DNA from: Candidatus Uhrbacteria bacterium
GTDB lineage: Bacteria > Patescibacteriota > Patescibacteriia > UBA9934
Direction of reading: 5' to 3'
NCBI GenBank assembly: GCA_018664485.1
Contig: JABJOE010000009.1
Coordinates: 142,635-192,692, forward strand
Length of the DNA stretch: 50,058 nucleotides
The notes under the pieces are model-generated. The model saw nothing but the letters and a program-made list of their open reading frames with translations. It had not been told where the DNA came from and made no database searches. This document shows positions 1,274 to 36,466 of this stretch, in pieces. The stretch's first letter is position 1, and every line of letters starts with the position of its first letter. The position numbers and the translations under genes were made by a program.

Positions 1274-1409
1274 ATTTTAGAATAGTTTCGGTGAGCGGGT
1301 GGCGGGCAAGGAGACGCCAGGCGGAGCCTGGTCCGGCTTCGCCGGATACCATCACCTTAGCCGAGATCAAACAGAGGCTCCATAAGCCGATAATAGTCCG
1401 AGTGAGAGC
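1274..1409 (-). repeat. intergenic imperfect-palindrome element, copy A (begins 8 nt after the NMNAT-like stop)
   Basis: Minus-strand reading shows CGGCTTATGGAGCCTCTGTTT, GC hairpins CCGGCGAAGCCGG and CCAGGCTCCGCCTGG, GCGTCTCC, and the tail GCTCACCGAAACTATTCTAAAATGAA. The same blocks recur at 9.1-9.4, 21.2-21.4, 34.0-34.2, 37.5-37.6 and 38.46-38.50 kb. Confidence 0.75.
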
Positions 1410-1416
1410 ATTTCGA

Positions 1417-4090: not shown

Positions 4091-4161
4091 AAAAATCATT
4101 TCCGGGCAGAGACTTCCCGAGCGAAGAAAGTTTACTTTCGAGAGCGAGGGTATATATCTGT
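4091..4161 (+). repeat. 71-bp direct repeat, copy 1
   Basis: Identical 71/71 to 4262-4332 (AAAAATCATTTCCGGGCAGAGACTTCCCGAGCGAAGAAAGTTTACTTTCGAGAGCGAGGGTATATATCTGT). Confidence 0.95.
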
Positions 4162-4261
4162 TTGTCGGACATAGATCCTGCCGAACGATCAAGTCGCAGA
4201 CTTGTTTAGAGTGAGGCAATATATCTGTCTGAAGGTTTTCAAACTATTTCCGTGGAATCAT

Positions 4262-4332
4262 AAAAATCATTTCCGGGCAGAGACTTCCCGAGCGAAGAAA
4301 GTTTACTTTCGAGAGCGAGGGTATATATCTGT
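4262..4332 (+). repeat. 71-bp direct repeat, copy 2
   Basis: Identical 71/71 to 4091-4161. It ends 1 nt before the stop of the 4333.. gene. Confidence 0.95.
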
Positions 4333-4692: not shown

Positions 4693-4808
4693 ATAAAACA
4701 ATTGTAACAAAAAATGTGTTCATATATCGAGCTGCATGTACACAGTCCATATAACAAGAAACCGCCCGCGTGAGCGAGGGGCTCCGGGGCGATGAGATTG
4801 GCGGCGCA

Positions 4809-5223: not shown

Positions 5224-5362
5224 GGTTGCTAAGTCGTTGAGTTACTAAGTTATTGAGTTGCTTGGCGTTTTTTTGTTTTAAGTTTTGAACATTTGATCTT
5301 TATTATTTGTTTGTTACTTATTTTCTGGATACTTGGTACTTTATGATTCTTGTCTGCCATAA
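5224..5362. repeat. ~130-bp AT-rich direct repeat, copy a (upstream of the 4809..5165 gene)
   Basis: Aligns with 6243-6370 with small indels: AAGTTATTgAGTTGCTTGGCGTTTTTTTgTTTtaAGTTTTGAacATTT...ATTTGTTTG...TGGAtACTTGGT...CTGCCAtaAAC. Confidence 0.8.
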
Positions 5363-5410
5363 AACAAAGCACCCCGTCGAAAGGCCGAAGGGGGCCTGTT
5401 CGCACGGGGC
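5361..5410 (-). terminator. terminator of the 5435..6154 gene
   Basis: Minus strand reads GCCCCGTgcgaacaGGCCcccttcGGCCtttcgACGGGGTGCtttgtttt. It is preceded by the perfect 16-bp palindrome CTGTAGATATCTACAG (5418-5433). Confidence 0.65.
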
Positions 5411-5434
5411 GAGAACGCTGTAGATATCTACAGT

Positions 5435-6154
5435 CTAGCGACTGTCTACGTGCGGGTCGGGTCCGTACCAGGTGAGGATTTTCTCAACTGCCGGACGTTC
5501 CGCCAACGGTACCGTGAGGTATACGTTGGGATCACTCCAGATAGTCAGAGCGCCGTCATCGTCGATCCAGCAGACGAGAGAACTTTTTCCTTGCATGCAC
5601 GGGCGAAGGTTGTCTCCGTGAATCTGCGTCGCCTTGCGGGCGCTATGCATCATAGCCCAGCAGGTGTACCTGGCAGGCTGATCATTGGGCGACTTCCACC
5701 CTGCTTCGGCGGCTTCCCTGCATGTCCGCACGTCCCGATTCGAGCTACTGGGTGCATCGTTGTCGTCAGGTGCGTTGCGCCCGTACCAGGTGATATGAGG
5801 GTCGACCTCGGGGCGATCTGCAACACGAACGAATGTCCAGTCAACATGGCTGCTCCAGATATACAGCCCACCCTTGTGCAGCTCGTTCTTCTCAACCCAG
5901 CATGCATTCGGCAGACCTCCATGTTCGCACGGGTAGAGATCATCTCCAGCAACATGTTTCTGGTTTCGGGCGGTTCGCATCTTGTTCGCACAGACACGCT
6001 CAGCTGGAATCGTGGTCGACAATCCCCAACCATCCTCAACGGCATCTGCACATTTCTGTGCGTCAGCCTTTGCGGTAGCCTCACGCTCCGCGGTCCTGTC
6101 TTTGTCTCCGCAGGCGAACATCATGACCAACAGGCCGGAAAGAAACAACTTCAT
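5435..6154 (-). CDS. hypothetical lipoprotein with an internal tandem duplication (~100 aa x2)
   Basis: SD GAGGGAG lies 5 nt before ATG 6152-6154. MKLFLSGLLVMMFAC is lipobox-like. The two halves share C..A.E.GW...PA...C...M..AR...GD.L.PC..G...CW....IWS....RP.V...TWYG. About 58 G+C per 100 nt by hand count. Confidence 0.75.
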   Translation of the reverse strand: MKLFLSGLLVMMFACGDKDRTAEREATAKADAQKCADAVEDGWGLSTTIPAERVCANKMRTARNQKHVAGDDLYPCEHGGLPNACWVEKNELHKGGLYIWSSHVDWTFVRVADRPEVDPHITWYGRNAPDDNDAPSSSNRDVRTCREAAEAGWKSPNDQPARYTCWAMMHSARKATQIHGDNLRPCMQGKSSLVCWIDDDGALTIWSDPNVYLTVPLAERPAVEKILTWYGPDPHVDSR

Positions 6155-6206
6155 CACTACTCCCTCAGGTCGGCGGAACTGCCATACCCAGTCAAAAGAC
6201 AGCTCA

Positions 6207-6234
6207 AATTATCACAAAAATGCCTTCATGTCAA
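6207..6234 (-). promoter_or_regulatory. promoter of the 5435..6154 gene
   Basis: Minus strand reads TTGACA (6229-6234), a 16-nt spacer ending in TGTG, then ATAATT (6207-6212). Confidence 0.6.
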
Positions 6235-6242
6235 TAGAATGA

Positions 6243-6370
6243 GAGTCGCTGAGTAATTAAGTTATTAAGTCGCTTGGCGTTTTTTTATTTGAAGTTTTGA
6301 GTATTTAATATTTGTTTGGTTCTTGCTTCTTGGACACTTGGTTCTTCGTGCCCCTTACCTGCCACTAACC
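6243..6370. repeat. ~130-bp AT-rich direct repeat, copy b (upstream of the 5435..6154 gene)
   Basis: See 5224-5362. It contains 8-bp-spaced TGAGT/TAAGT units. Confidence 0.8.
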
Positions 6371-9115: not shown

Positions 9116-9236
9116 GAATGAGTCGAGATATTCGAGTTTAATTTCGGCTAACAGACAGCAGTCGAGGCCTGGTCCGGCTCCGCCGGATACTCTCGCTGTA
9201 AACAGAGGCCCCATAAGCCAAAAGTGGTCCAACTAA
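9116..9236 (-). repeat. intergenic palindrome element, copy B2
   Basis: Minus strand reads GTTGGACCACTTTTGGCTTATGGGGCCTCTGTTTA + TATCCGGCGGAGCCGGACCAGGCC + GCCGAAATTAAACTCGAATATCTCG. The 36-nt block 9200-9235 matches 9361-9396 at 34/36. Confidence 0.8.
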
Positions 9237-9240
9237 CCAG

Positions 9241-9397
9241 AACTTTGATATTCGAGGTTAGTTTAGGTGAACGGGTGGCATAATAGGGATTTAGATAGTT
9301 GAGATCAATTTTGGTGCATGGAGATGTTTTGTCGAGACGTACCTACAGTACGTTGAGGCTAAACAGAGGCTCCATAAGCCGAAAGTGGTCCAACTAG
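9241..9397 (-). repeat. intergenic palindrome element, copy B1 (starts at the stop codon of the upstream gene)
   Basis: Minus strand reads TAGCTAGTTGGACCACTTTCGGCTTATGGAGCCTCTGTTTAGCCTCAACGTACtgtagGTACGTCTCGAC...CTCCATGCACCAAAATTGATCTCAAC. Confidence 0.8.
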
Positions 9398-10744
9398 CTA
9401 GATCCCAGGGGTTACAATCATTGTTCCACGTATCATCCCCATTGAACAACTAAACGTAAACCTCCCAGTCTCTGTAGGAGTGAACTGAACAAGATTTTTA
9501 CCCGTACGTAAATTTTCATTTACACCGAACGCGGGCAAGATCAACGTATCTCCACATCCCATGTAATCATCTCCGTTAATCGTCCAGTCAACCGGAATTC
9601 CCTCCTGTACCGTAAGCGTGCTCGGACTATATCTCCCACGACTCGTCATATCCATTTCAATCTGTTGACGACCATCTACCAGAACTATATCTGCAGCTTC
9701 TTCCTGCGTGACATCTGAAGCAAATACAGTATCTGGACTAATACCGAGTAAAGTCATTCCGTTTGTTACGTTACTGATCCCCAATATAAGAACGATTACT
9801 CCGGCAAACTGAGTTACCTTCTTGAGAGTATCTCCAGACGCATACGATGTAGCGCCACCAATACCAAGAAGTACTGGAGCTGTTCCAATAGCAAATATCG
9901 CCATCACCATCCCAGACTGGATTGGATCTTGAAGTGTAAGCGCAAATAACTGCATAGACTGCGTGAATCCGCACGGTAGAAAGAATGTCATTGCACCGAG
10001 AGCCATCGGAGCTTTCGGGTCCTTAGATTCAGCCAAGTCATGCACTTTATGCGCTAGCCATTTCGGCATACTAATAACATTCGAAGGAAAAACACCCATC
10101 AAATTGACTCCGATTGCAATCATCATCAAAGCAACGATAACAACGAATATTCCGTTTAACGCTGGACTCAATTGAAGTGCTGACCCTGCATAACCAATAA
10201 CGGCACCAAACGCAAAGAACCCAAGGACTCGTCCAAGGTTAAATAGTATATGTGGCTGGAATCTCTCCCTTGGAGTCATGCCCTCCTGATCTTTTGCAAC
10301 GGCACTACTGACAGCCGCGACCAATCCACCGACTACCGCGGTACACGATGACAACGACGCAATCACACCGATTATCAGAATCCCCACAAGGCTTGCAGGA
10401 GCAGCTGATGAAGGACTTAATCGCAATACTCCAAGTCGGTCTAAAATTATATAGAGCGACAATACGAATACCGCAGCCGCACCAACGCGCTGCCAATTTA
10501 TTCTCGGTTTTTTCTTGTTACCTCCTTTATCTTTTTTACCGACATGATAATCATGCTTTTCAAGGAAGGCGGTCAATTCATGATGAGTGTATCTGCGGTC
10601 CCCTGTTGTCTCAAGTTGAATCTGTCTTTTACTGTGAGAAACATCGACCGACACAATATCCGGTTGCCTCTTTAACTCCCGCTCAATAACGACTTCGCAA
10701 CTCTTACAGGTGGTGCCGCGAACGAAAAATTGTTGTCTTGCCAT
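9398..10744 (-). CDS. HMA domain / multi-TM (TauE/DsbD-like) / C-terminal cupredoxin-like fusion protein
   Basis: N-terminal GTTCKSCEVVIE (CxxC), about 6-7 hydrophobic spans including FFLPCGFTQS, and a C-terminal beta-rich region ending FSCSMGMIRGTMIVTPGI. Confidence 0.75.
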   Translation of the reverse strand: MARQQFFVRGTTCKSCEVVIERELKRQPDIVSVDVSHSKRQIQLETTGDRRYTHHELTAFLEKHDYHVGKKDKGGNKKKPRINWQRVGAAAVFVLSLYIILDRLGVLRLSPSSAAPASLVGILIIGVIASLSSCTAVVGGLVAAVSSAVAKDQEGMTPRERFQPHILFNLGRVLGFFAFGAVIGYAGSALQLSPALNGIFVVIVALMMIAIGVNLMGVFPSNVISMPKWLAHKVHDLAESKDPKAPMALGAMTFFLPCGFTQSMQLFALTLQDPIQSGMVMAIFAIGTAPVLLGIGGATSYASGDTLKKVTQFAGVIVLILGISNVTNGMTLLGISPDTVFASDVTQEEAADIVLVDGRQQIEMDMTSRGRYSPSTLTVQEGIPVDWTINGDDYMGCGDTLILPAFGVNENLRTGKNLVQFTPTETGRFTFSCSMGMIRGTMIVTPGI

Positions 10745-17351: not shown

Positions 17352-17930
17352 TTATATAAACGGATTATCTGATTCAAAAGTAAGAAGTGGCGTCTGATCA
17401 TTGAACGCATTTTCTTCAATGCCATATTTTCTAGCAAACAAAGTAGACACCTGACAAAATACAGCCTCAGAATAGTCAAAACCAATCTTTTCCGTTGCCA
17501 TGCGCACACTCTCCTCACTATCACCTTCTATCTCTACAAACGGCTCTAAATACGGCCACTCATCGATAGCTATCTCTGTACCATCCAAAATCCACAATTC
17601 TCGTTTTGTTTCTTGGTAAGATTTACAACTTGCACCAATAGATTCAAGAAAAACTTTGGTATTAGCATAGTCATCCACGGTAATAGAGAGTTCTTTTTGA
17701 TCTTCTATCTTATCACCATCCACAATTTTTAAACTCATAGTTATCCTATCCCCTTCATCACGTACCCTCAGCCAACCTCCAGATATTTCGTGGCCACTTG
17801 GAAGATGAAAGACACTACGACGCTGAAGGAATTCGGCGCGTACAAGCTTCGCTCCAGCTGATCGAAGCAATTCACGGACTGTATTTTTATCAATATTTGT
17901 AAATGTAGCTTCGTATTCAACCTCCAGCAT
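17352..17930 (-). CDS. CYTH-domain protein (triphosphatase / class IV cyclase fold)
   Basis: N-terminal LEVEYEATF acidic motif and overall CYTH-like length. Confidence 0.55.
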   Translation of the reverse strand: MLEVEYEATFTNIDKNTVRELLRSAGAKLVRAEFLQRRSVFHLPSGHEISGGWLRVRDEGDRITMSLKIVDGDKIEDQKELSITVDDYANTKVFLESIGASCKSYQETKRELWILDGTEIAIDEWPYLEPFVEIEGDSEESVRMATEKIGFDYSEAVFCQVSTLFARKYGIEENAFNDQTPLLTFESDNPFI

Positions 17931-17967: not shown

Positions 17968-18228
17968 TCAGGTCGCTTTCTCCTCACGTAATTTCTTAAT
18001 CTTATTTTCTTCACCACGGTTATACCCTCCAATCTTTCCGTCTGACCTTACCACACGATGGCACGGGATTGCAGGGTCATAGTTTTTATTCAAAATATTC
18101 CCAACGGCTCGAGCTGCACTAGGCCTACCTGCAGCTTGTGCTACCTGTTTATACGTCAAAGTTTCGCCTTTCGGTATACCTCTAACAACGTCATAAACTA
18201 TTTTCGAAAATGGTGTAGGTATGGACAT
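17968..18228 (-). CDS. ogt: methylated-DNA-protein-cysteine methyltransferase, DNA-binding/active-site domain only
   Basis: Start at ATG 18226-18228 ([12 protein letters not shown]...). Active site IPCHRVV. Confidence 0.8.
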
Positions 18229-18278
18229 TGCTCGTATTTTATGGTCCGATAGATACAACGTCAACCTTGGAGGGTCGC

Positions 18279-18602
18279 ATGGCGCAAGTAAAATACCAAC
18301 GCCTCGACACACGAGGTCAGTGGCAATCCTACGAATCTACCGGCCACATTGCCGCACTTCGCTACCTTTCTGTGGCAACACTTACCATAGACGGTGTCGG
18401 CGAGCTGCTGGTTTACTGGGGGCTCAATGAAGAGCCAAATATAGCTACCGGGATTCTATGCCTTGAAGATAGCAATATCCATATTGAACTCCGACAATCA
18501 CGGGTAGGGATTGGCAAGTACGAGTTCATCGGCCGAGAAGCCTTCAATGACAGTCTGGGAAACATCATCCTGAAAGGCTCAATCGATATGTCAGACTCGT
18601 AA
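18279..18602 (+). CDS. hypothetical protein (107 aa)
   Basis: ATG 18279 is preceded by GGAGGG 6 nt upstream. The stop abuts the hairpin at 18602-18628. Confidence 0.6.
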
Positions 18603-18628
18603 GCGCGAGCCCCCGTGGGCCCGCGCTT
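18602..18628. repeat. 27-nt terminator hairpin, copy 1 (left boundary of the 774-bp cassette)
   Basis: AGCGCGAGCCCCCGTGGGCCCGCGCTT is identical 27/27 to 19376-19402. The similar tail TGCATG.TAA.TTT..CAAAAAA follows both copies. Confidence 0.9.
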
Positions 18629-18644
18629 CTGTGCATGTAAATTT

Positions 18645-18697
18645 CAAAAAAAGAAAACCGCCCCGACAAGGATGCCGAGGCAATCCCCTGGGACGGT
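18645..18697 (-). terminator. terminator of the 18701..19021 gene
   Basis: Minus strand reads CCGTCCC...GGGGCGGttttcttttttt. Confidence 0.6.
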
Positions 18698-18700
18698 TAG

Positions 18701-19021
18701 TTACTCCGTCTTTGTGGAAACACTCACTGCCACCTCCAGGTGACGATAAGCTCCACCGTAGTGGATTTTACGACAGAAGGAGGGATGACAGCATACCCTC
18801 TTAACAGTCACATCCACAACCTTGAGTCCTTCTTCCATTTCAATAATGGCGAAGGTACCCTCTTCAGAGTTTCCTTGAATCTCGATTTCCACCCAACGGC
18901 GTTCATCGAGATGAAGCATGACGCTTTTGGCCAGTCTACCAACCGTGGGGAAAGAGCAAATAGCCTCTCCATCAACGGTTTTCAGGATTCCATGAATGTA
19001 AATATCGACGAACTTAGCCAT
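18701..19021 (-). CDS. hypothetical protein (106 aa), cassette cargo
   Basis: ATG 19019-19021 has GGAG 5 nt upstream. It has its own promoter 220 nt upstream. About 51 G+C per 100 nt, versus 44 in nirK (hand counts). Confidence 0.65.
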   Translation of the reverse strand: MAKFVDIYIHGILKTVDGEAICSFPTVGRLAKSVMLHLDERRWVEIEIQGNSEEGTFAIIEMEEGLKVVDVTVKRVCCHPSFCRKIHYGGAYRHLEVAVSVSTKTE

Positions 19022-19242
19022 GAGGGCTCCATGGGGTCGTCGCTGCGAATGATTCCGCTGCGGCGTTGGTTTAACCCCCTACCAAACGCATTCCCGTGAC
19101 CTCTTACCAATGAGACACGGTATAAACGTATAAACTAACTTACTGAGTAATCTGGGATTTCTTTTCGGAAATTCCCGGACTTTCTAGGCCTTGCGACCTT
19201 ACGATGGTTCTTTCTTTCACTAACGTACTAGATGATTCACTG
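19022..19242 (-). promoter_or_regulatory. ~220-nt structured 5' leader
   Basis: Lies between the promoter at 19249-19277 and ATG 19021. It has several hairpins (e.g. CCGTGtctc..gaggTCACGG) and no convincing ORF. Confidence 0.45.
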
Positions 19243-19248
19243 TAAGAG

Positions 19249-19277
19249 AGTATAGCAAAAAATAGCACTTTTGTCAA
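19249..19277 (-). promoter_or_regulatory. strong sigma70-type promoter
   Basis: Minus strand reads TTGACA (19272-19277), spacer AAAGTGCTATTTTTTGC (17 nt), then TATACT (19249-19254). Confidence 0.7.
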
Positions 19278-19361
19278 GCGCCAACGAGCAGTTTTAGTCC
19301 AAAAAGCCCTTATTTTAGGCCATTTTTATACAAAGATTGTTAGGCCACTATCATCCAAAAT

Positions 19362-19402
19362 TTCAAAAAAAGAACAGCGCGAGCCCCCGTGGGCCCGCGC
19401 TT
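19362..19402 (-). terminator. nirK terminator, which is also 27-nt hairpin copy 2 (right boundary of the cassette)
   Basis: Minus strand reads AAGCGCGGGCCCacgGGGGCTCGCGCTgttcttttttt. Hairpin at 19376-19402. Confidence 0.8.
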
Positions 19403-19429
19403 GTTGCATGCTAATTTTTCCTCAAAAAA

Positions 19430-20647
19430 CTATTCGACTGCCGAGTAAATCGAAGGATCATCCTCACCTGTAACTTCCAGGATTGCCCAAGCTCCTTTAT
19501 TCATACGAGCAAGTGCGTGATCAACCAGAATATAATTTCCTGGAACATCAACCGTAAACTCTACAATTGCAGCTCCACCTGGCAAAACTGCCGTTGTCTG
19601 CACATCGTGTAATGGAGCACTACTCAACGCAGCCTCAGGGTACACCGTATCGAAAATCTCACCGATAACGTGGAAAGATGAAATCTGATTAGTACCACCG
19701 TTTCCAACATACATTCGAATCGTGTCACCCACCTCAGCCTGCATACGAGGAGCATCCTCAACGACACCGTTGAAAGTAACGTATGTAGGATTTCCATCAA
19801 GTAAAGCTTCCGAGTCAAAAGTAACTAGTCCGGTTTTTCCAAGACCACCGCTCGTATATAACTCACCTTGCATCACGTAAAACTCTTTATCAACGGGCGT
19901 CATACCTTCCTCAGGTTCAACTAAAATCAATCCATACTGACCATGAGAATTATGAGTACTCACGTTTGCTGTTGCGCAGTGATACACATATAGCCCTGGA
20001 GCCATAGCTTTAAAAGAAAATGTTTTTGTTTCCCCCGGCTCAACTGATGACAATGCCGCTCCACCGCCGGGACCGTTCACCGCGTGCAAATCAATATTGT
20101 GTGCGTGTAAACTAGTTGGATCGTTTGTGATAGTGAGCTCAACCGTATCACCTTCACGAACTCTCATAAACGGACCTGGAACCGCACCATCATAGGTCCA
20201 AAAATTAAACGAAATACCATCAGCTACCTCGCCTATAACCTCTTTTGCCGTCACGCTAAGTTCAACCGTTGTAGGCTTGCCACGAGTTATTGGTGGAGGA
20301 ACCTCGTTTGGATCAGCTCCGATATCCTCTACCCTCTCAAACTGTCCTGACTTTATAAAAAACTCAACCACTTTAAGAAATGGAATTGCCGCCGTCACAC
20401 CCTTTGGAGCAAACGTTTGCATGTGCGGAGGTAGCGCAAAGTGCACCGGGAGAGGTCTTGAAATTCCTCCATGGAATATTAGAAGGGCAAGCGCCACTGC
20501 CAGAATTACTCGTGAAGATGACGGAAATTTCTTCCATCTTTTTTTCAACTTCTTCCATGGAAGGTGACGTACCAATAGCGCACATAGCAACACTACAGCT
20601 ACCACCAAAATCATGATTTCTAATATCATTTGGATCATATGCCACAA
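19430..20647 (-). CDS. nirK: copper-containing nitrite reductase with an N-terminal TM anchor
   Basis: HAHNIDLHAV, LYVYHCATANVSTHNSHGQYGLILVEP and a two-cupredoxin layout. N-terminal hydrophobic helix. Confidence 0.85.
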   Translation of the reverse strand: MWHMIQMILEIMILVVAVVLLCALLVRHLPWKKLKKRWKKFPSSSRVILAVALALLIFHGGISRPLPVHFALPPHMQTFAPKGVTAAIPFLKVVEFFIKSGQFERVEDIGADPNEVPPPITRGKPTTVELSVTAKEVIGEVADGISFNFWTYDGAVPGPFMRVREGDTVELTITNDPTSLHAHNIDLHAVNGPGGGAALSSVEPGETKTFSFKAMAPGLYVYHCATANVSTHNSHGQYGLILVEPEEGMTPVDKEFYVMQGELYTSGGLGKTGLVTFDSEALLDGNPTYVTFNGVVEDAPRMQAEVGDTIRMYVGNGGTNQISSFHVIGEIFDTVYPEAALSSAPLHDVQTTAVLPGGAAIVEFTVDVPGNYILVDHALARMNKGAWAILEVTGEDDPSIYSAVE

Positions 20648-20744
20648 GTATACACCCTTGAAAACAAAAGAACGAGCAAATTGCCCGCTCTTTCGCTATC
20701 CGTATTAGGAAGCTAACTGTCAGCTCCCAAAACTAGGAATGAAG

Positions 20745-21179
20745 TTATTTCAATGTAATAACAGCTCCTGCTTCTTCAAGCTTACCCTTAAGCTCTTCAG
20801 CTTCTTCCTTTGAAGCACCTTCCTTAACAACAGCAGGTACTGCGTCAACGATAGCTTTAGCTTCCTTAAGACCCTGACCTGTGATCTCACGAACAGCCTT
20901 GATCACGCTGATCTTGCTGTCTCCTGTCTCTGTGATCTCAACGTCGAATGAAGACTGCTCTTCTTCCGCAGCGTCTCCTCCACCTGCGCCTGGAGCTGCC
21001 ATCATCATAGCTGGGGCTGCAGCTGATACACCAAACTTATCTTCAAGAACCTTTACGAGCTCTGCCAAATCGATAACAGACATCTTCTCAATGTTCTCAA
21101 CTAACTCTTTGAACTGAGCTGGCACCTCAACAGGAGCCTTCTCCTCTGTAGCCTCAACGGCTGTAGCTTCTTCAGACAT
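20745..21179 (-). CDS. rplL: 50S ribosomal protein L7/L12
   Basis: [24 protein letters not shown]...[21 protein letters not shown]...[11 protein letters not shown]. Confidence 0.95.
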
Positions 21180-21197
21180 AATATTTTTGATAAATAG

Positions 21198-21226
21198 AAT
21201 TTAATTTTGTGTTCATTTTAGATCAA
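21198..21226 (-). promoter_or_regulatory. possible internal promoter for rplL, carried by the element tail
   Basis: Minus strand reads TTGATC (21221-21226), spacer TAAAATGAACACAAAAT (17 nt), then TAAATT (21198-21203). Confidence 0.35.
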
Positions 21227-21279
21227 TACCGACAAACAGAAACTCTGAAGGCGATAATGATGTAAATGAGAAGTCGGAC
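21205..21279 (-). repeat. intergenic palindrome element, partial copy C2
   Basis: Minus strand reads GTCCGACTTCTCATTTACATCATTATCGCCTTCAGAGTTTCTGTTTGTCGGTATTGATCTAAAATGAACAC. It aligns to C1 at an offset of 116 nt. Confidence 0.8.
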
Positions 21280-21398
21280 GCACTCATTTGATATCAGTAT
21301 CGGTGCGTAGAGACGTTTGACTGAGGCGTACTTACAGTACGTTGAAGTTAAACAGAGACTCTACAAGGCGATAATGATGCAAATGAGAAGTCCTACGC
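21280..21398 (-). repeat. intergenic palindrome element, copy C1 (overlaps the rplJ stop codon)
   Basis: Closed by 8-bp arms CTCATTTG (21283-21290) / CAAATGAG (21380-21387). Inner arms GTAGAG (21307-21312) / CTCTAC (21359-21364). Central hairpin CGTACttacaGTACG. Confidence 0.85.
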
Positions 21399-21917
21399 GG
21401 TTTTCTGCTCTTTGATTGCGTCAAGGACAGTAACAAGTCCACGAAGGTTTCCTGCAAGAACGTTGACGAATCCAGAGATTGGCGCGTTAAGCGATCCAAC
21501 CAACTGTGAAAGCAACTGTTCCTTGCTTGGAAGTGATGCCAACTTAGACACCTCCTCTGCTGATAATCCTTTTCCTTCCAGGATTCCTGCAACAAGTTTG
21601 AAAGCTTCGTTCTTCTTTTCGAAGTCTTTCAAGAGCTTTGCCGCAGCAACCTCGTCACCGAATGAAACGGCTGTCAGGATAGATCCTTCGTACGATGCTG
21701 GATCGATGTCTAGTCCTACTTCTTTCGCGGCAGCTGCGATCAACGTCTTTTTGGCGATCATCACCTTAACGTTTTGCTCGGCAGCGGTTACGCGAAGCTC
21801 GTCGGACTGAGCCATCGTATATCCAGAGATCGAACTAAATGCTGCAGCTTTCATGTCACGGAACATTTCCGTAAGATTAGCTACAATCGCTTCTTTCTCT
21901 TTTCGAGATTTTGCCAT
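21393..21917 (-). CDS. rplJ: 50S ribosomal protein L10
   Basis: MAKSRKEKEAIVANLTEMFRDMKAAAFSSISGYTMAQSDELR... L10-like, and located upstream of rplL. Confidence 0.93.
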   Translation of the reverse strand: MAKSRKEKEAIVANLTEMFRDMKAAAFSSISGYTMAQSDELRVTAAEQNVKVMIAKKTLIAAAAKEVGLDIDPASYEGSILTAVSFGDEVAAAKLLKDFEKKNEAFKLVAGILEGKGLSAEEVSKLASLPSKEQLLSQLVGSLNAPISGFVNVLAGNLRGLVTVLDAIKEQKTA

Positions 21918-22083
21918 AGTTTTTATAGAACATTAGGCGTGAATTAGTCCGTCCTGTTGAAACTTCTGAATTTTCAATAAAAAAAGACGGCGTTTCTACG
22001 CCGCAAATATAAGGAATTTCCAATATTTGGCACCTCGACGGGACTTAAGCTCACTTTGAGCACCCGTTGTCTACGGTGTAGAT
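21918..22083 (-). promoter_or_regulatory. rplJ leader with an attenuator-like terminator hairpin
   Basis: ~165-nt leader containing GGCGTagaaACGCCgtcttttttt (21979-22004), consistent with L10-leader-type autoregulation (established for Firmicutes-type leaders). Confidence 0.5.
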
Positions 22084-22089
22084 AGCATA

Positions 22090-22118
22090 ACTATACGGAA
22101 TTCATTACCTTTTGTCAA
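22090..22118 (-). promoter_or_regulatory. rplJ-rplL promoter
   Basis: Minus strand reads TTGACA (22113-22118), a 17-nt spacer, then TATAGT (22090-22095). Confidence 0.7.
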
Positions 22119-22619: not shown

Positions 22620-22707
22620 TAGTATCTCCGTAACAGAACCTCCTGCATCGACAGCACCATGCCACCGATCACAAGGGATTCAACCAAAATCGCAAAGCCG
22701 TGTCAAC

Positions 22708-25190: not shown

Positions 25191-25512
25191 ATGTAGTCAA
25201 TGCAAAACAAATTCGTAGGTTTTAACTTTATCTTTTTCCCTGTAATACGCTTCCAAAATACTCAATGTAGCTAAGGCTATATGTCGTACCTTGTAAACGC
25301 ATTACAGCTAAAAATCTTTTGTAAAAATACCCGAATTCACCTTGCACTGACTATGGTCGCATTTTAGCACATAAGTAAGACCCCTAGCCCAGCAAAGCCA
25401 AGTCATCGATAACTATTCTACACTACTTCGCCATTAAATGGCGTACTTGACCTACAGAATAAAATAGTAGAGAATTATTTTAAGCTAATCATGCTAATTA
25501 GAGAAATTATTT

Positions 25513-25923
25513 ATGTCGGAAATAAACCGATCTCATCTCGAACGAGGAATGAGCGACACCCAAAAAGTCCTTGAAAATGCCCACGATGTACCAGATCACC
25601 TCGTGAAAATTGATGAGGACGATCTGGATAGAATTATAAAAACAAAAGCATTTGAGGACCTGACAACTTACGACATGCTAACGCTAGCAACCTTGCATCC
25701 AGAGTACGCAAGTGACCTAGAAGAGCTTGCATACGATCGCGATCGCGAACGAGAGTTTGAAGACGCTGGAGATAACGCACTGAGAGATAATGTTGGAATT
25801 AAGGAGGACGGAAAAGGAACAAACATGTTTGATTTAATTAGACCAGAATACAAAAGCTTGGAAGCATGGGTAACCAAAAGAAGAAAGGACATGCAAGAAG
25901 ATGAAGAGAGTGAGAAAATCTAA
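25513..25923 (+). CDS. hypothetical acidic protein (136 aa)
   Basis: ORF track. It ends at the bidirectional terminator. Confidence 0.55.
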   Translation: MSEINRSHLERGMSDTQKVLENAHDVPDHLVKIDEDDLDRIIKTKAFEDLTTYDMLTLATLHPEYASDLEELAYDRDREREFEDAGDNALRDNVGIKEDGKGTNMFDLIRPEYKSLEAWVTKRRKDMQEDEESEKI

Positions 25924-25960
25924 GATCTCACGTTACAACAACATCGTTCAAAAATAAGAA

Positions 25961-25990
25961 AAAGCTATAGCCTTGTGCTATAGCTTTTTC
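25961..25990. terminator. bidirectional terminator
   Basis: gaaAAAGCTATAGCcttgtGCTATAGCTTTttc. Confidence 0.8.
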
Positions 25991-26318
25991 TTATATATCC
26001 AAAACAATCATGTCGCCTCCCCAAAAGCAAACTCCCACCGGTCCTTAAGACGGCGGGAGCGAGTGAGTGCCAGTGAGACTGGCGAGTTGGCGCCTGATAC
26101 CGGACTCGCCAGGCGGAGCCTGGTCCGGCTTCGCCGGAAACCCTTTGGTGAATAGCCGGCAAGGCAAAAGGCGGACTACTGTCCAGAAGCAGTGGCGAGG
26201 CAACCAACCTCAGTGTCCTTCGAGGGAAGGCGCATGAGCATGATGTAAGCCGCGAAAACCAACGCGGCCGTCAGCCTGATAGTCATTGACACAGTGAACA
26301 AGATTCACCTCCAATTCC
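25991..26318 (-). ncRNA. promoter/terminator-bounded GC-rich transcript (~360 nt including the terminator), function unknown
   Basis: Lies between the promoter at 26325-26353 and the terminator at 25961-25990. The 3' two-thirds is GC-rich, full of hairpins, and contains the 32-nt module shared with copy A. Confidence 0.4.
26176..26301 (-). CDS. possible 41-aa hydrophobic peptide at the 5' end of that transcript
   Basis: GGAGG (26308-26312) lies 6 nt before TTG 26299-26301. Translation: (M)FTVSMTIRLTAALVFAAYIMLMRLPSKDTEVGCLATASGQ*. Confidence 0.3.
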   Translation of the reverse strand: MFTVSMTIRLTAALVFAAYIMLMRLPSKDTEVGCLATASGQ

Positions 26319-26324
26319 GGCGGG

Positions 26325-26353
26325 AGTATAGCGCAGATTTTCGCGCATGTCAA
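26325..26353 (-). promoter_or_regulatory. strong sigma70-type promoter
   Basis: Minus strand reads TTGACA (26348-26353), a 17-nt spacer, then TATACT (26325-26330). Confidence 0.7.
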
Positions 26354-26444
26354 TGCTAAGAGGGCAAGAGAATACGCATATCACTCCGCCTCAAAACAAA
26401 GATACTTTATGAATGTTTAACCCTGACTGTTATACTGTTTACAT

Positions 26445-29409: not shown

Positions 29410-29733
29410 TCAAGTCAGCTGAACAACACTTGTCAAATCGGTGACCGTGAAGATCTCACAGAGCTTCGGATCCGCAAAGTCAGGGAACTTACGAAGCACC
29501 ACCGACATATCTCCTTCTTCGAAGCGTCTCTTGAGATCGCCCTTAGCCCCCTCATCGCTGAATGGCATGGCGATCACTGCGCGAGTTCCGTATCCATTCC
29601 AGCGATGCTTCCAGATGAGAAAGCTCACACCGTTCCGCCTGATGAAGCCCCCAGGACACCAGCCGTGGTGCGAGGTCTGTCCGAACATATTCCACACGAA
29701 TTCATTGAGCATGGCGAACTCCTTTGTTGCCAT
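29410..29733 (-). CDS. hypothetical protein (107 aa)
   Basis: ORF track. It has its own promoter 285 nt upstream. Higher GC. Confidence 0.6.
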   Translation of the reverse strand: MATKEFAMLNEFVWNMFGQTSHHGWCPGGFIRRNGVSFLIWKHRWNGYGTRAVIAMPFSDEGAKGDLKRRFEEGDMSVVLRKFPDFADPKLCEIFTVTDLTSVVQLT

Positions 29734-30019
29734 TTTGGGACAGATTATCCCTTATCAAATCACCAATACATGATGCCCTGATAAGGGGTCCGCACACGCC
29801 GTAATAAACGATCTGTGTGCGGAAAGGTTGGGTCTTTCTTCGTCCTTCAGCAGCGACCCTGACGAATTCCAAAGGAATCGATCGTCAGATTTGCTTCCAG
29901 CCAGAAAGACCCATGTTCAAATCCCGCGAGTGATCGTGGGAGAACATGGGTCCTCATGTTTCCGTCTACTTTAAGGCGAGACAGGTGGCCTTTCGAACAT
30001 GAAAGTACTTACCTTTGAT
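29734..30019 (-). promoter_or_regulatory. ~285-nt highly structured 5' leader
   Basis: Long hairpins include GACCCATGTTC...GAACATGGGTC, GACGAtcgattcctttggaatTCGTC and CCGCACAC...GTGTGCGG. Confidence 0.45.
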
Positions 30020-30025
30020 ATATCT

Positions 30026-30054
30026 ATAATAGCACAAAATCGCCCTTTTGTCAA
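30026..30054 (-). promoter_or_regulatory. strong sigma70-type promoter
   Basis: Minus strand reads TTGACA (30049-30054), spacer AAAGGGCGATTTTGTGC (17 nt), then TATTAT (30026-30031). Near-twin of the 19249-19277 promoter. Confidence 0.7.
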
Positions 30055-30096
30055 GGACGATTTTGGATAATCAAAGCGAACATTAGCGAAAATTTG

Positions 30097-35639: not shown

Positions 35640-35696
35640 CCAGCAATACGCAACCCGGTTGCGTATTTATCTGAAAACCAGAAACCGCCCACACCA
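35640..35696. repeat. 57-bp direct repeat, downstream copy (right after the cassette cargo)
   Basis: Aligns gap-free to 36410-36466 at an offset of 770, about 49/57 identical. It contains the hairpin AATACGCAAcccggTTGCGTATT and GAAACCGCCC. Confidence 0.9.
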
Positions 35697-35732
35697 CGAG
35701 GGATGCAGACGGTAACGATGAGCCCAGGCGGG

Positions 35733-36332
35733 CTAGAGAAACAGGTGAACTCGGACGAAGGTCTCGGACGCCGCACCGTCTTCCGCAAAGCGGACGCGCA
35801 CAGTCGTATCGAGGCCAAAGTATCCGGACTCAGACCGCAGAAGGATGTTCGGACCAGCTCCCACGCTGCTCGTCGCAGCAAAGTCGGTCAAGCCGCCATA
35901 GCCCTCGTACTCGGCGCCGATGTGAATATAGTCCGTGAGCTTGCGCTCCCACTGGCCGAAAGCATAGAAAGACCAGCTCTGCGGCTGAACTTCGAAATCG
36001 AACCAGCCGTAGCTGCTCTCGACATTGGGGTACAAGCGCAGTGCCGTGATGACCTCGTTGCTTCCGAAAGCATATCCTACTGTCGGTCGCACGCCCATCC
36101 ACTCAGGGCCAAGGCCCGTAAGCTCGATTACCGCTACTGGCGTGAGTCCGTCACTAGTCTTCGCCAGATTGGGGCTCAGAATCGCATGAGGAGCGAGCCC
36201 AATGTTCTCGGTCAGCGGAACGCTTGAGTGAATCAACAGCCGAAAACCGGCTTCCGGCAACGCATACGCGGGGGCACCCCACATAGCGAAGGCCGCCAAA
36301 ATGAACGCCATCAAACCGTGTACTCGATGCAT
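35733..36332 (-). CDS. secreted beta-strand-rich protein (outer-membrane beta-barrel-like), cassette cargo
   Basis: SD GGGAGGG before ATG 36330-36332. Signal MHRVHGLMAFILAAFAMWGAPAYA. Alternating hydrophobic pattern (YIHIGAEYEGY, TVRVRFAEDG, TFVRVHLFL). 59 G+C in 100 nt by hand count. Confidence 0.75.
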   Translation of the reverse strand: MHRVHGLMAFILAAFAMWGAPAYALPEAGFRLLIHSSVPLTENIGLAPHAILSPNLAKTSDGLTPVAVIELTGLGPEWMGVRPTVGYAFGSNEVITALRLYPNVESSYGWFDFEVQPQSWSFYAFGQWERKLTDYIHIGAEYEGYGGLTDFAATSSVGAGPNILLRSESGYFGLDTTVRVRFAEDGAASETFVRVHLFL

Positions 36333-36366
36333 GATCCCTCCCGGGTGTGAGTTGCAAGGAGAGATG

Positions 36367-36394
36367 AACTTAGCACTTTTCCCCCTTTTGTCAA
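36367..36394 (-). promoter_or_regulatory. cassette promoter
   Basis: Minus strand reads TTGACA (36389-36394), a 16-nt spacer, then TAAGTT (36367-36372). Confidence 0.6.
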
Positions 36395-36409: not shown

Positions 36410-36466
36410 CCAACAATACGCAACCCGGTTGCGTATATACCGCAAAACTAGAAACCGCCCGCGCCA
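36410..36466. repeat. 57-bp direct repeat, upstream copy (3' half of the ppiB terminator plus hairpin)
   Basis: See 35640-35696. Together with 36467-36490 it forms a complete 12-bp-stem terminator plus T-run for ppiB. Confidence 0.9.

What the first reader, a model, noticed from the sequence alone, without database searches (positions are those of the whole stretch)
18602..19402. Second promoter+gene cassette (774-bp unit) bracketed by an exactly duplicated 27-nt terminator hairpin between convergent genes
Seen: AGCGCGAGCCCCCGTGGGCCCGCGCTT occurs identically (27/27) at 18602-18628 and 19376-19402. Each copy is followed by a similar TGCATG.TAA.TTT..CAAAAAA tail. ATTTCAAAAAAAGAA also recurs at 18641-18655 and 19359-19373. 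The right copy is the nirK terminator, and the left copy abuts the stop of the convergent 18279..18602 gene. In between are a strong promoter (19249-19277), a 220-nt leader, one 106-aa ORF and its own terminator. Inference: an ancestral shared bidirectional terminator was split and duplicated when a self-contained expression cassette inserted. The architecture and unit length (774 vs 770 bp) match the 35.6-36.5 kb case.
Basis: partly seen in the sequence, partly recalled or inferred. Interest (0 to 1): 0.7.

Follow-up and report, generated by a model that had tools for sequence, protein, structure and literature searches.

The report
Orphan-gene insert bounded by duplicated hairpin
In a tiny-genome (Patescibacteria) bacterium, a 1.2-kb piece of foreign-looking DNA carrying two orphan genes has been wedged between two genes that sit one base apart in the only relative that keeps the same gene order, and an exact 27-base hairpin flanks one of the orphan genes, probably a scar of how it got in.

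Summary
The 27-mer AGCGCGAGCCCCCGTGGGCCCGCGCTT occurs exactly twice in the window (18602-18628, 19376-19402; 0 expected by chance). Between the copies lie an 11/12 sigma-70 promoter, a ~221-nt leader, a 106-aa ORF and its own hairpin+T-run terminator.

The key new result comes from the only syntenic relative found (nirK 88% aa, DNA 69-80%). There the order is L10-L12-nirK-MGMT, with nirK's stop and MGMT's start one base apart (TAA-C-ATG). So all of window 18229-19429 (1201 bp) is lineage-specific: both hairpins, ORF106 and the convergent ORF107.

- Both ORFs are orphans in 5.8 billion proteins, and their GC3 (0.49, 0.53) lies above all 26 core genes (0.30-0.46).
- The hairpin is not a genome-wide repeat.

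The "split shared bidirectional terminator" reading is only partly supported:
- No genome has ORF107 without ORF106.
- Only the right copy is a canonical terminator, and only on the minus strand.
- A second perfect repeat (17 nt, spacing 719) sits in a different register, so the 774-bp unit is not the whole story.

Two more repeat-flanked orphan units lie in the window (35.6 kb, 5.2 kb).

Best reading: moron-like or PeSL-like gene accretion with duplication of a terminator module. The mechanism is unresolved.

The parts
18229..19429 (.). Lineage-specific 1201-bp segment between the nirK stop and the MGMT-like start. It is absent from the syntenic relative.
   Evidence: In L064 nirK's TAA and the MGMT ATG are separated by one C. 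Blastn synteny stops at 19431 and resumes at 18177. GC is 0.477 against 0.398 and 0.449 in the flanks.
19430..20638 (-). nirK (copper nitrite reductase), the gene upstream of the insert.
   Evidence: TIGR02376 scores 314 bits against a cut-off of 296. Pfam finds Cu-oxidase_3 and Cu-oxidase_2. P0004 in the relative is 88% identical.
19403..19429 (.). Spacer GTTGCATGCT plus a degenerate A-run (B': AATTTTTCCTCAAAAAA) between the right hairpin and the nirK stop.
   Evidence: It aligns with 18629-18655 at p about 0.01-0.03. The gapped repeat is 43 nt at 90.7%.
19376..19402 (.). Right copy of the 27-nt hairpin. It acts as the stem of nirK's intrinsic terminator on the minus strand.
   Evidence: Exact match. 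It scores as terminator-like with the tail GTTCTTTTTT. Fold.
19358..19374 (.). Right copy of the perfect 17-mer AAATTTCAAAAAAAGAA. It is the T-run of the nirK terminator on the minus strand.
   Evidence: Only two exact copies exist in the window.
19249..19277 (-). Sigma-70-type promoter of the ORF106 unit.
   Evidence: TTGACA-17-TATACT, 11/12 with TG. The same box TTGACAAAAG precedes the L10 leader, g29410 and the 36-kb cassette gene.
19022..19242 (-). 5' leader of about 221 nt.
   Evidence: Read from the sequence. There is no Rfam match and the fold is not significant (z = -1.2).
18701..19021 (-). ORF106, an orphan protein-coding ORF with a GGAG ribosome-binding site.
   Evidence: It is the best of the six frames by codon score (0.13), and its GC3 is 0.49. 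The word-indexed search of 5.8 billion proteins found only itself; the exhaustive HMMER search of 1.84 billion representatives (of ~15 billion proteins) added only two weak repeat-protein hits. It has no family hits. The AF2 pLDDT of 34 is uninformative.
18652..18689 (-). ORF106's own terminator stem (hp2). Its T-run is the left 17-mer.
   Evidence: 17 pairs followed by TTTTTTGAAA. Fold.
18639..18655 (.). Left copy of the perfect 17-mer.
18602..18628 (.). Left copy of the 27-nt hairpin. It overlaps the ORF107 stop by 1 nt and has no T-run on either strand.
18279..18602 (+). ORF107, a convergent orphan ORF with a GGAGGG ribosome-binding site. Its coding status is weak.
   Evidence: It is an orphan. 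Its codon score is 0.006 (still the best frame) and its GC3 is 0.53. The AF2 pLDDT is 45. It shows no similarity to ORF106.
18236..18264 (-). Promoter-like site inside the insert that would re-start transcription of the MGMT-like gene and the genes downstream.
   Evidence: TTGACG-17-TAAAAT, 10/12. The relative has no promoter-like site here and no strong terminator-like site until after DUF378.
17968..18228 (-). MGMT-like DNA_binding_1 gene, the gene downstream of the insert.
   Evidence: PF01035, E = 1e-28. The ortholog abuts nirK in the relative.
35640..35696 (.). Left copy of the 57-nt repeat of the second case. It contains the perfect palindrome AATACGCAACCCGGTTGCGTAT.
35733..36332 (-). 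Cargo of the second case: a 199-aa ORF with a signal peptide and no match in any of the four family libraries. It has its own promoter (-35 at 36394) and terminator.
   Evidence: Its GC3 is 0.68.
36410..36466 (.). Right copy of the 57-nt repeat. It spans the 3' arm and T-run of the cyclophilin-gene terminator plus the palindrome.
5232..6364 (.). Third repeat-flanked single-gene unit. The repeats are 5232-5360 and 6244-6364 (about 78% identical). The cargo is a lipoprotein-like ORF with no family match at 5435..6157(-).
   Evidence: Its GC3 is 0.63.

Best explanation
**What it is.** Window 18229-19429 is a lineage-specific insertion of foreign-composition DNA into the one-base junction between nirK and the MGMT-like gene. 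Those genes belonged to a formerly continuous L10-L12-nirK-MGMT-... operon. The insert consists of autonomous, 'moron-like' transcription units:
- ORF106, with a strong promoter, a long leader and its own terminator;
- the convergent ORF107;
- a new promoter that restarts the downstream genes.

**What the hairpin pair means.** The two identical hairpins are copies of one terminator module of about 55 nt (A-run / hairpin / 10-nt spacer). The module was duplicated when the ORF106 unit was added. This happened either by duplication of the target or by recombination between a module carried by the incoming unit and the resident one.

**Most economical reconstruction.** The layout is HP-spacer-B-[702 nt]-B-c-HP-spacer-B'. 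This reads as a short tandem array of the module (2.3 units) into which the 702-nt promoter-ORF106-stem segment is set between two perfect 17-nt copies of the A/T-run.

**What each part does today.**
- The right hairpin + T-run terminates nirK.
- hp2 + T-run terminates ORF106.
- The left hairpin is at most an insulator or weak terminator between the convergent ORFs.

**Shown versus inferred.**
- Shown: the repeat, the unit's anatomy, its absence from the relative, orphan status and composition.
- Inferred: the direction of the event (gain), the order of events and the duplication mechanism.
For: **Repeat and anatomy**
- The repeat is exact and non-random.
- The unit has a complete promoter, ORF and terminator.

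**Comparative evidence**
- In the relative L062/L064 synteny is conserved from xseA to MscL, but nirK TAA-C-ATG MGMT are adjacent.
- The relative has one promoter-like site before L10 and no strong terminator-like site until after DUF378.

**Foreign origin**
- ORF106 and ORF107 have no homologues in the word-indexed search of 5.8 billion proteins. For ORF106 an exhaustive search of 1.84 billion representatives (standing for ~15 billion proteins) also found none beyond two weak repeat-protein hits.
- Their GC3 values (0.49, 0.53) lie above the whole range of 26 core genes (0.30-0.46).
- The cassette interior has no homology to its neighbours, so this is not a tandem gene duplication.

**Copy number and repeat structure**
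- The hairpin is not multi-copy. Among the 15 hairpins with stems of at least 10 bp in the window, only HP and HP2 occur in two copies.
- Similarity outside the hairpin is on one side only.
- A second perfect 17-mer sits in a different register.

**Recurrence**
- Two further repeat-flanked units carrying high-GC3 ORFs with no match in any of the four family libraries lie in the same 50 kb. The relative has no such repeats in 21 kb.
Against: - There is only one syntenic relative, and it is distant (69-80% DNA identity). A precise loss of the region in that lineage cannot be excluded. More distant nirK homologues sit in unrelated contexts, so there is no outgroup.
- No intermediate state (ORF107 without ORF106, or a single hairpin) was observed.
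- The flanks differ by about 20% plus indels while the hairpin is 27/27. This needs either selection on the stem, gene conversion, or a crossover inside the hairpin, and the data do not say which.
- A 17-nt target duplication is unusually long.
- Neither ORF is proven to encode a protein. Codon scores are low, especially for ORF107, and AF2 confidence is low.
- The genome-wide copy number of the hairpin could not be counted directly, because the 986-kb source contig was not readable.
Confidence: 0.5

Rival explanations
1. PeSL-like modular shuffling. The ORF106 unit entered, and could leave, as a small circle by homologous (Campbell-type) recombination between a hairpin module it carried and the resident nirK-terminator module. 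The crossover fell inside the 27-nt identical block. The hairpins are therefore attL/attR-like hybrid sites, not a target duplication.
For: - The block is perfect with similarity on one side only. That is what a crossover between two related but non-identical modules leaves.
- 27 nt is about the minimal length for RecA-type exchange (established knowledge).
- The same pattern holds for the 22-nt palindrome at 35.6 kb, where the right copy lies 21 nt upstream of the cassette's -35 box.
- In T4-like phages, ORFans flanked by two promoter + stem-loop motifs are replaced by a single motif in the sister phage, and mini-circles were detected (PMC2839356).
- Contig ends of other assemblies pile up at the left hairpin and near the 36.4-kb junction.
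Against: - Each hairpin exists in only two copies, so there is no family of shared linker sites.
- The extra perfect 17-mer is not explained.
- No empty-site or circle junction was seen. All 30+ contigs recovered are collinear with the window.
- The contig-end pile-ups also occur in ordinary coding DNA, and some assemblies share the same reads.
Confidence: 0.2
2. The region is ancestral and was deleted cleanly in the relative. The two hairpins are old paralogous terminators, kept identical by selection on the stem or by short-patch gene conversion. No recent insertion is involved.
For: - Only one relative is available and intergenic DNA is not alignable at that distance.
- Patescibacteria genomes are streamlined, so loss with operon compaction is plausible.
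- If 22 of the 27 positions are stem positions under purifying selection, identity at the 5-6 free positions has p about 0.25 at 20% divergence (my estimate).
Against: - The deletion would have had to remove exactly 1201 bp and leave TAA-C-ATG.
- Both ORFs have no homologues anywhere and deviant GC3.
- The left hairpin is not a canonical terminator on either strand, so selection on it is not obvious.
- The perfect 17-mer in another register still needs a recent duplication.
Confidence: 0.17
3. A dedicated structure-specific recombination or transposition system moves these cassettes by recognising the hairpins. Candidates are integron attC-like sites, IS200/IS605 (PATE)-like elements or Xer/dif-module-like sites.
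For: - Unit sizes (770-774 bp, one small orphan ORF) are typical of integron cassettes and of IS200.
- The hairpins are in direct orientation, and HP carries an extrahelical-type mismatch.
- The two loci have different hairpin sequences but the same architecture, which would fit recognition by structure.
Against: - The hairpins are 23-27 nt, well short of the 57 nt or more of an attC site. The flanks do not fit the R' (GTTRRRY) or R'' (RYYYAAC) cores: the right copy has GTTGCAT and the left copy has no GTT (read).
- No integrase, Y1 transposase or recombinase turned up among the window proteins scanned or among the database gene calls covering about 10-32 kb.
- The cargo proteins match no transposase family.
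- The arm and centre geometry (11+4+11, 10+3+10) does not fit 11+6+11 dif sites.
- The third case has no hairpin at all.
Confidence: 0.05
4. The hairpin is a dispersed REP-like or terminator repeat, and two copies 774 bp apart are expected by chance.
For: This genome does carry other short intergenic repeat families. Some of its terminators share the motif GGGCGGTTTCT.
Against: - There are exactly two copies in 50 kb.
- The core occurs in only two JGI metagenome contigs, each covering one of the two known copies. Single-copy loci of this organism are recovered in 1-2 JGI contigs each.
- It is absent from IMG/VR and from the relative.
Confidence: 0.03

Closest known systems
Phage 'morons' (moron accretion; Hendrix et al. 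2000, as summarised in PMC2839356 and PMC3594210)
   Same: - It is an independent transcription unit: one small gene with its own sigma-70 promoter and factor-independent terminator.
- It is inserted between two genes that are directly adjacent in a relative.
- Its composition deviates from its surroundings, and its function is unknown.
   Different: - It lies in the core chromosome of a Patescibacterium, next to ribosomal-protein genes, not in a phage or prophage.
- It is flanked by a duplicated terminator or palindrome module. [quoted passage not shown]
PeSL (promoter-early stem-loop) cassettes of T4-like phages RB49/phi1 (Arbiol et al. 2010, PMC2839356)
   Same: - ORFans are bracketed by repeated regulatory stem-loops rich in G-runs and C-runs, next to strong sigma-70 promoters.
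- The unit brings its own promoter and terminator, so neighbouring genes are insulated.
- The 35.6-kb case and the g29410 promoter have the stem-loop right at or near the -35 box.
   Different: - PeSLs form a family of about 50 copies per genome that share about 100 bp. Here each hairpin is a private two-copy sequence.
- The repeated part here is terminator tail + hairpin, not the promoter.
- The sister genome has no single-motif 'empty' site, and mini-circles were not tested.
- The host is cellular. The authors state that no such case was known in cells.
Integron gene cassettes / CALIN (clusters of attC sites lacking an integrase)
   Same: The cassettes are about 0.5-1 kb with one small orphan ORF, bounded by imperfect palindromes in direct orientation. 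Different cassettes have different palindromes.
   Different: - The palindromes are too short and lack the R'/R'' cores and the L boxes.
- The cassettes carry their own promoters.
- They sit as isolated single cassettes between core genes rather than in an array.
- No IntI was found in the window.
Campbell-type integration / attL-attR direct repeats of genomic islands
   Same: The imperfect direct repeats have a perfectly identical core and similarity on one side only. They flank DNA that is absent from a relative.
   Different: - The insert is only 0.7-1.2 kb and encodes no integrase.
- The target is a terminator region, not a tRNA gene.
- Excision was not observed.

Membership tests
Intrinsic (factor-independent) terminator | A G+C-rich stem-loop followed directly by a T/U-run on the transcribed strand | tested here: met
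   This is met by the right copy on the minus strand only: 11 pairs (9 GC) followed by GTTCTTTTTT. The left copy is not called on either strand, and the right copy is not called on the plus strand. 'Bidirectional' is therefore not met.
Phage moron | A single gene with its own promoter and its own terminator | tested here: met
   The promoter scores 11/12, and the terminator is hp2 with 17 pairs plus a T-run. Both are consensus matches only; expression was not measured.
Phage moron | Inserted between genes that are adjacent in related genomes | tested here: met
   In L064 the nirK TAA, one C and the MGMT ATG are contiguous.
Phage moron | Nucleotide composition differs from the surrounding genome | tested here: met
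   GC3 is 0.49 and 0.53, against a core range of 0.30-0.46. The insert's GC is 0.477, against 0.398 and 0.449 in the flanks. The deviation is modest for ORFs this short.
Phage moron | Resides in a phage or prophage genome | tested here: not met
   The neighbours are L10, L12, nirK, SpoU methylase, enolase, PGK and GAPDH. There are no PHROG hits, and the hairpins are absent from IMG/VR.
PeSL cassette (T4-like phages) | A composite motif of sigma-70 promoter plus adjacent stem-loop, repeated on both sides of an ORFan | tested here: inconclusive
   - 18.6-kb case: the right hairpin is 99 nt upstream of the -35 box. The left hairpin is 338 nt from the next promoter.
- 35.6-kb case: the right palindrome is 21 nt upstream of the -35 box.
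PeSL cassette (T4-like phages) | A motif family present in many copies that share about 100 bp and act as linkers | tested here: not met
   HP and HP2 have two copies each in 50 kb and differ from each other.
PeSL cassette (T4-like phages) | The sister genome has a single motif in place of motif-ORFan-motif, and mini-circles are detectable | not testable with these tools
   The only relative lacks the whole region. Reads were not available.
Integron cassette / attC | An attC site of 57-141 nt with R'' (RYYYAAC) and R' (GTTRRRY) cores and L boxes | tested here: not met
   The hairpin is 27 nt. The right flank GTTGCAT fits 6 of 7 positions, and the left flank CTTCTGT has no GTT. No RYYYAAC lies upstream (read).
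Integron cassette / attC | A nearby IntI tyrosine recombinase, or an array of attC sites | tested here: not met
   No recombinase turned up among the window proteins scanned or among the database gene calls covering about 10-32 kb. Not every ORF of the window was scanned, and the rest of the genome was not seen.
REP / REPIN dispersed palindromes | Tens to hundreds of copies per genome, often as inverted pairs | tested here: not met
   There are two direct copies. Only 2 JGI contigs carry the core. The complete genome was not counted.
IS200/IS605-type element (PATE) | Subterminal hairpins at both ends plus a Y1 transposase, in cis or in trans | tested here: inconclusive
   Direct hairpins at both ends and a size of about 0.77 kb fit. 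ORF106 has no Y1_Tnp match. A trans-acting enzyme elsewhere in the genome could not be checked.
Xer/dif module (IMEX, pdif) | A 28-bp site with 11-bp arms around a 6-8-bp centre, and the same site at every module | tested here: not met
   The geometries are 11+4+11 and 10+3+10, and the two loci have unrelated sequences.

The most novel reading that the evidence does not exclude
Patescibacterial chromosomes acquire and shed single orphan genes as pre-packaged promoter-gene-terminator cassettes, by recombination at private palindromes placed just downstream of terminators. This would be a cellular counterpart of phage PeSL mini-circle shuffling, or an integrase-independent, integron-like cassette system. 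On this reading, the pile-up of contig ends at the left hairpin reflects a live presence/absence or rearrangement polymorphism in the natural population.
Probability: 0.12. Interest if true: 0.75.

Novelty: new variant of a known kind. Interest (0 to 1): 0.45.

Why it matters
How ultra-small, streamlined CPR/Patescibacteria genomes gain new genes is poorly understood. They have few classical mobile elements, yet large strain-specific orphan gene sets.

This locus shows base-level anatomy of such a gain. An operon junction one base wide was opened. Two orphan units with their own signals were added. A terminator module was duplicated so that the upstream gene is still terminated, and a new promoter keeps the downstream genes expressed.

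Three repeat-flanked units in 50 kb suggest a recurrent process rather than a one-off accident. If the repeats are recombination scars, the phage concepts of 'moron accretion' and 'PeSL shuffling' would extend to cellular chromosomes. It would also give a simple sequence signature (duplicated terminator or palindrome 0.7-1 kb apart) for finding recent gene gains in metagenome-assembled genomes.

If the repeats are only incidental duplications, the locus is still a clean example of operon splitting by horizontal insertion.

Tried and rejected
- **Tandem gene duplication.** Six-frame and sensitive blastn comparisons of the three cassette interiors against the whole window found nothing beyond the flanking repeats. 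Rejected.
- **Inverted duplication.** ORF106 and ORF107 show no alignment to each other. Rejected.
- **RNA element in the leader.** There is no Rfam hit at gathering or relaxed thresholds, and the fold z-score is -1.2. No support.
- **Function of ORF106/ORF107.**
  - Pfam, PHROGs, PADLOC and NCBIfam gave nothing.
  - The exhaustive HMMER search gave only a junk tandem-repeat translation and a weak multi-hit to PAS repeats.
  - Single-sequence AF2 models had pLDDT 34 and 45, so no fold search was run.
- **Empty site in GTDB genomes.** A search with the CYTH neighbour gave at best 65% aa identity and no synteny. Dead end.
- **Outgroup for polarity.** Five more distant nirK homologues (63-71%) sit in unrelated contexts. 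Dead end.
- **Phage origin.** HP and HP2 are absent from IMG/VR.
- **Extension of the repeat.** Apparent similarity into the 3' end of nirK and into the ORF107 side, seen in a global alignment, was not significant against shuffles on the ORF107 side. I do not rely on it.
- **Contig-end clustering as evidence of heterogeneity.** The clustering is striking at the left hairpin. However, it also occurs in ordinary coding DNA, and some assemblies share the same reads. Left as unexplained.
Full report
**1.

The 27-mer AGCGCGAGCCCCCGTGGGCCCGCGCTT occurs at 18602-18628 and 19376-19402 and nowhere else in the window, even with three mismatches allowed. Shuffles give zero matches.

It folds into an 11-bp stem with one A.C mismatch and a 4-nt loop. 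It is the most G+C-rich of only 15 hairpins with stems of at least 10 bp in the 50 kb.

The interior is as described:
- a promoter at 19277..19249 (TTGACA-17-TATACT, 11/12, with TG);
- a leader of about 221 nt;
- a 106-aa ORF at 18701..19021;
- a 17-bp hairpin + T-run terminator at 18689..18652.

Contigs from other samples that are 99.9-100% identical span both copies (L001, L002, L006). This is therefore not an assembly artefact.

**2. Where this is**

The window is core chromosome of a Patescibacteria (CPR) bacterium.
- Its neighbours include L10 with its leader RNA, L7/L12, SpoU methylase, enolase, PGK, GAPDH and UppS.
- Its best matches among GTDB species representatives are Patescibacteria MAGs such as Uhrbacteria, with at most 65% aa identity in a neighbouring gene.
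- The source is a 986-kb contig.
- The gene to the right of the finding is a bona fide nirK (TIGR02376 above its cut-off).

**3. The comparative result**

One nirK homologue (P0004, 88% aa) lies on contigs L062-L064, which keep the window's gene order from xseA to MscL at 69-80% DNA identity.

In that relative nirK ends ...GTTGAATAA, followed by a single C, and then ATG starts the MGMT-like gene.

In the window, 1201 bp (18229-19429) separate the same stop and start. The whole interval is lineage-specific, and it contains:
- both hairpins;
- ORF106, with its promoter, leader and terminator;
- the convergent ORF107;
- a promoter-like site (18264..18236, 10/12) in front of the MGMT-like gene.

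The relative has one promoter-like site before L10 and no strong terminator-like site until after DUF378. Its genes therefore form one long operon, which the window's insert has split.

**4. Gain is more likely than loss**

- In a word-indexed search of 5.8 billion clustered proteins, ORF106 and ORF107 matched nothing but themselves.
- For ORF106, an exhaustive HMMER pass over 1.84 billion representatives returned only a junk repeat translation and a weak multi-hit to PAS repeats.
- Their GC3 values (0.49, 0.53) lie above all 26 core genes (0.30-0.46, mean 0.395). The insert is also richer in GC than its flanks.
- A loss would have had to excise exactly the interval between a stop and a start codon.

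Still, there is one relative and no outgroup. Five more distant nirK homologues sit in unrelated contexts. The polarity is therefore inferred, not shown.

**5. The hairpin is not a common repeat**

- Its 24-nt core occurs in only two contigs of the JGI metagenome collection. These are the right copy (L026) and the left copy (L027) of this same locus.
- Single-copy genes of this organism are recovered in one or two JGI contigs each. This argues for about two copies per genome.
- It is absent from IMG/VR and from the relative.

**6. Fine structure of the repeat**

On the plus strand the layout is:

HP(18602-18628) - CTGTGCATGT - B(18639-18655) - [702 nt: hp2 stem, ORF106, leader, promoter] - B(19358-19374) - C - HP(19376-19402) - GTTGCATGCT - B'(AATTTTTCCTCAAAAAA) - CTA (nirK stop)

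B is the perfect 17-mer AAATTTCAAAAAAAGAA, which has only these two exact copies.

Outside the hairpin, similarity exists only on the right-hand side (p about 0.01-0.03). There is none on the left (p > 0.2).

So there are two perfect direct repeats in different registers, 774 and 719. A single 'split the hairpin and duplicate it' event explains one of them but not the other.

If the 702 nt and one B are removed, what remains is 2.3 tandem units of a module of about 55 nt [B-c-HP-spacer]. That is the most economical pre-insertion state I can construct.

Read on the minus strand:
- B is the T-run of two terminators, HP(R)+T for nirK and hp2+T for ORF106.
- HP(L) lies 10 nt beyond the ORF106 terminator and has no T-run on either strand.

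'Shared bidirectional terminator' is thus not borne out. Only HP(R), and only on the minus strand, is canonical.

**7. Why the hairpin is perfect while its flank is about 20% diverged**

There are three options, and the data do not separate them:
- Purifying selection on 22 stem positions. The 5-6 free positions would stay identical with p about 0.25 at that divergence (my estimate).
- Short-patch gene conversion.
- The 27-nt block is where a crossover between two related modules took place.

The weak terminator context of HP(L) argues mildly against pure selection.

**8. The pattern recurs**

- **35.6 kb.** A 57-nt repeat (86% identity, spacing 770) contains the perfect palindrome AATACGCAACCCGGTTGCGTAT. 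As at 18.6 kb, similarity extends only towards the terminator side. It brackets a 199-aa ORF with a signal peptide, no match in any of the four family libraries, GC3 0.68, and its own promoter and terminator. The right palindrome is 21 nt upstream of that promoter's -35 box.
- **5.2 kb.** A repeat of about 130 nt at about 78% identity (spacing 1012), with no hairpin, brackets a lipoprotein-like ORF with no family match and GC3 0.63.

None of the three interiors resembles its neighbours. The relative shows no such local repeats in 21 kb.

That 774 and 770 are nearly equal is therefore probably coincidence, but the architecture is shared.

**9. Comparison with known systems**

- **Phage morons.** The unit meets the operational definition: own promoter, own terminator, inserted between genes adjacent in a relative, deviant composition. 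The exception is that it sits in a cellular core chromosome (PMC3594210; PMC2839356).
- **PeSL cassettes.** The bracketing by repeated regulatory stem-loops is closest to these elements of T4-like phages. There, ORFans flanked by two promoter + stem-loop motifs are replaced by one motif in the sister phage, and mini-circles exist. The authors noted that no cellular example was known.
- **Membership in PeSL fails on a defining feature.** PeSLs are a family of about 50 copies that serve as shared linkers. Here each hairpin is a private pair.
- **Other families do not fit.** Integron attC, Xer/dif, REP and IS200/IS605 features were checked against the sequence and are not met, or at best inconclusive (see the membership table). 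No recombinase turned up among the window proteins scanned or among the database gene calls covering about 10-32 kb.

**10. Unexplained**

Among 100%-identical contigs from other samples:
- eight end at 18540-18622;
- five start at 18614-18643, that is, at the left hairpin;
- nine cross the identical right hairpin without a break.

A similar pile-up occurs at 36350-36382 and at 35691/35712. However, one also occurs at 35086-35110 in ordinary coding DNA, and some assemblies share the same reads.

This could be a coverage drop at the hp2 + HP(L) double hairpin, or real heterogeneity at the cassette junction. Only read mapping can tell.

**11. Verdict**

- The repeat is real and non-random.
- It marks the edges of a self-contained orphan-gene unit inside a larger lineage-specific insert that split an operon.
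- It is wrong or unproven in its details: the ancestral ORF107/nirK shared bidirectional terminator, a single event, and a meaningful 774-bp unit.

The finding is a clear, moderately interesting case of moron-like gene accretion in a CPR chromosome. Its recombination-scar signature deserves a genome-wide and population-level follow-up.

Noticed in passing
window 5232-6364: A third single-gene unit flanked by imperfect direct repeats (5232-5360 and 6244-6364, about 78% identical, spacing 1012). The cargo is a 240-aa lipoprotein-like ORF with no family match at 5435..6157(-), GC3 0.63, with its own promoter and terminator. The repeat contains no hairpin.
   Followed up: partly
window 1310-1410, 9151-9241, 9299-9402, 21288-21391, 26102-26142: A family of intergenic elements of about 95 nt, each with two small hairpins, usually placed right after a stop codon. 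One copy fills the L10-L12 spacer, which is 213 nt here but 20 nt in the relative L062. It has no Rfam match. It could be a MITE-like element or an unknown RNA.
   Followed up: partly
window 4091-4161 and 4262-4332: A 71-nt segment duplicated exactly, 171 nt apart, with a partial third copy at 4208-4233. It lies just downstream of tRNA-Gln and its terminator. Short local duplications of intergenic DNA are common in this genome (also 9199/9360, 21248/21365 and 34025/34185).
   Followed up: no
window 18540-18643; 36350-36382; 35691-35712; 35086-35110: Ends of 100%-identical contigs from other metagenome assemblies cluster at the left hairpin but never at the identical right hairpin. They also cluster near the edges of the 36-kb cassette. 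One cluster lies in ordinary coding DNA, and some assemblies share the same reads.
   Followed up: partly
window 17352-17930 versus L062 11465-12552: Between the MGMT-like gene and SpoU the window has a CYTH-domain gene. The relative has an Rce1-like protease gene plus a 141-aa ORF in the same position. This is a gene replacement at a conserved site, next to the insert studied here.
   Followed up: no
window 29410-30064: Another ORF with no family match and high GC3 (107 aa, GC3 0.65) sits behind the same promoter box (TTGACAAAAG at 30054) and a leader of about 300 nt. A 12-bp stem-loop (30036-30064) wraps the -35 box, an arrangement like a PeSL. Nearby small ORFs share a 62-nt repeat (28927 and 29248).
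   Followed up: partly
window 4757-4767, 35680-35690, 36450-36460 (minus strand): Three terminators share the 3' arm and tail GGGCGGTTTCT. They belong to the cyclophilin gene and to two high-GC3 ORFs that have no family match. ORF106's terminator has the similar GGGGCGGTTTTCT.
   Followed up: partly
window 19430-22094; L062 8754-11209: A copper nitrite reductase gene (nirK) lies directly downstream of rplJ-rplL. In the relative it appears to be in the same operon as these ribosomal-protein genes. That is an unusual placement for a respiratory or detoxification enzyme in a Patescibacterium from oxygen-minimum-zone-type samples.
   Followed up: partly
window 22620-22707 and 25191-26444 versus L062 1390-2478 and 4948-8752: The two genomes also differ by other gene-sized indels between conserved genes. 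The relative has four extra ORFs between the amino-acid kinase gene and L10, and a queuosine-synthesis gene before xseA. The window has different small ORFs at those positions.
   Followed up: no
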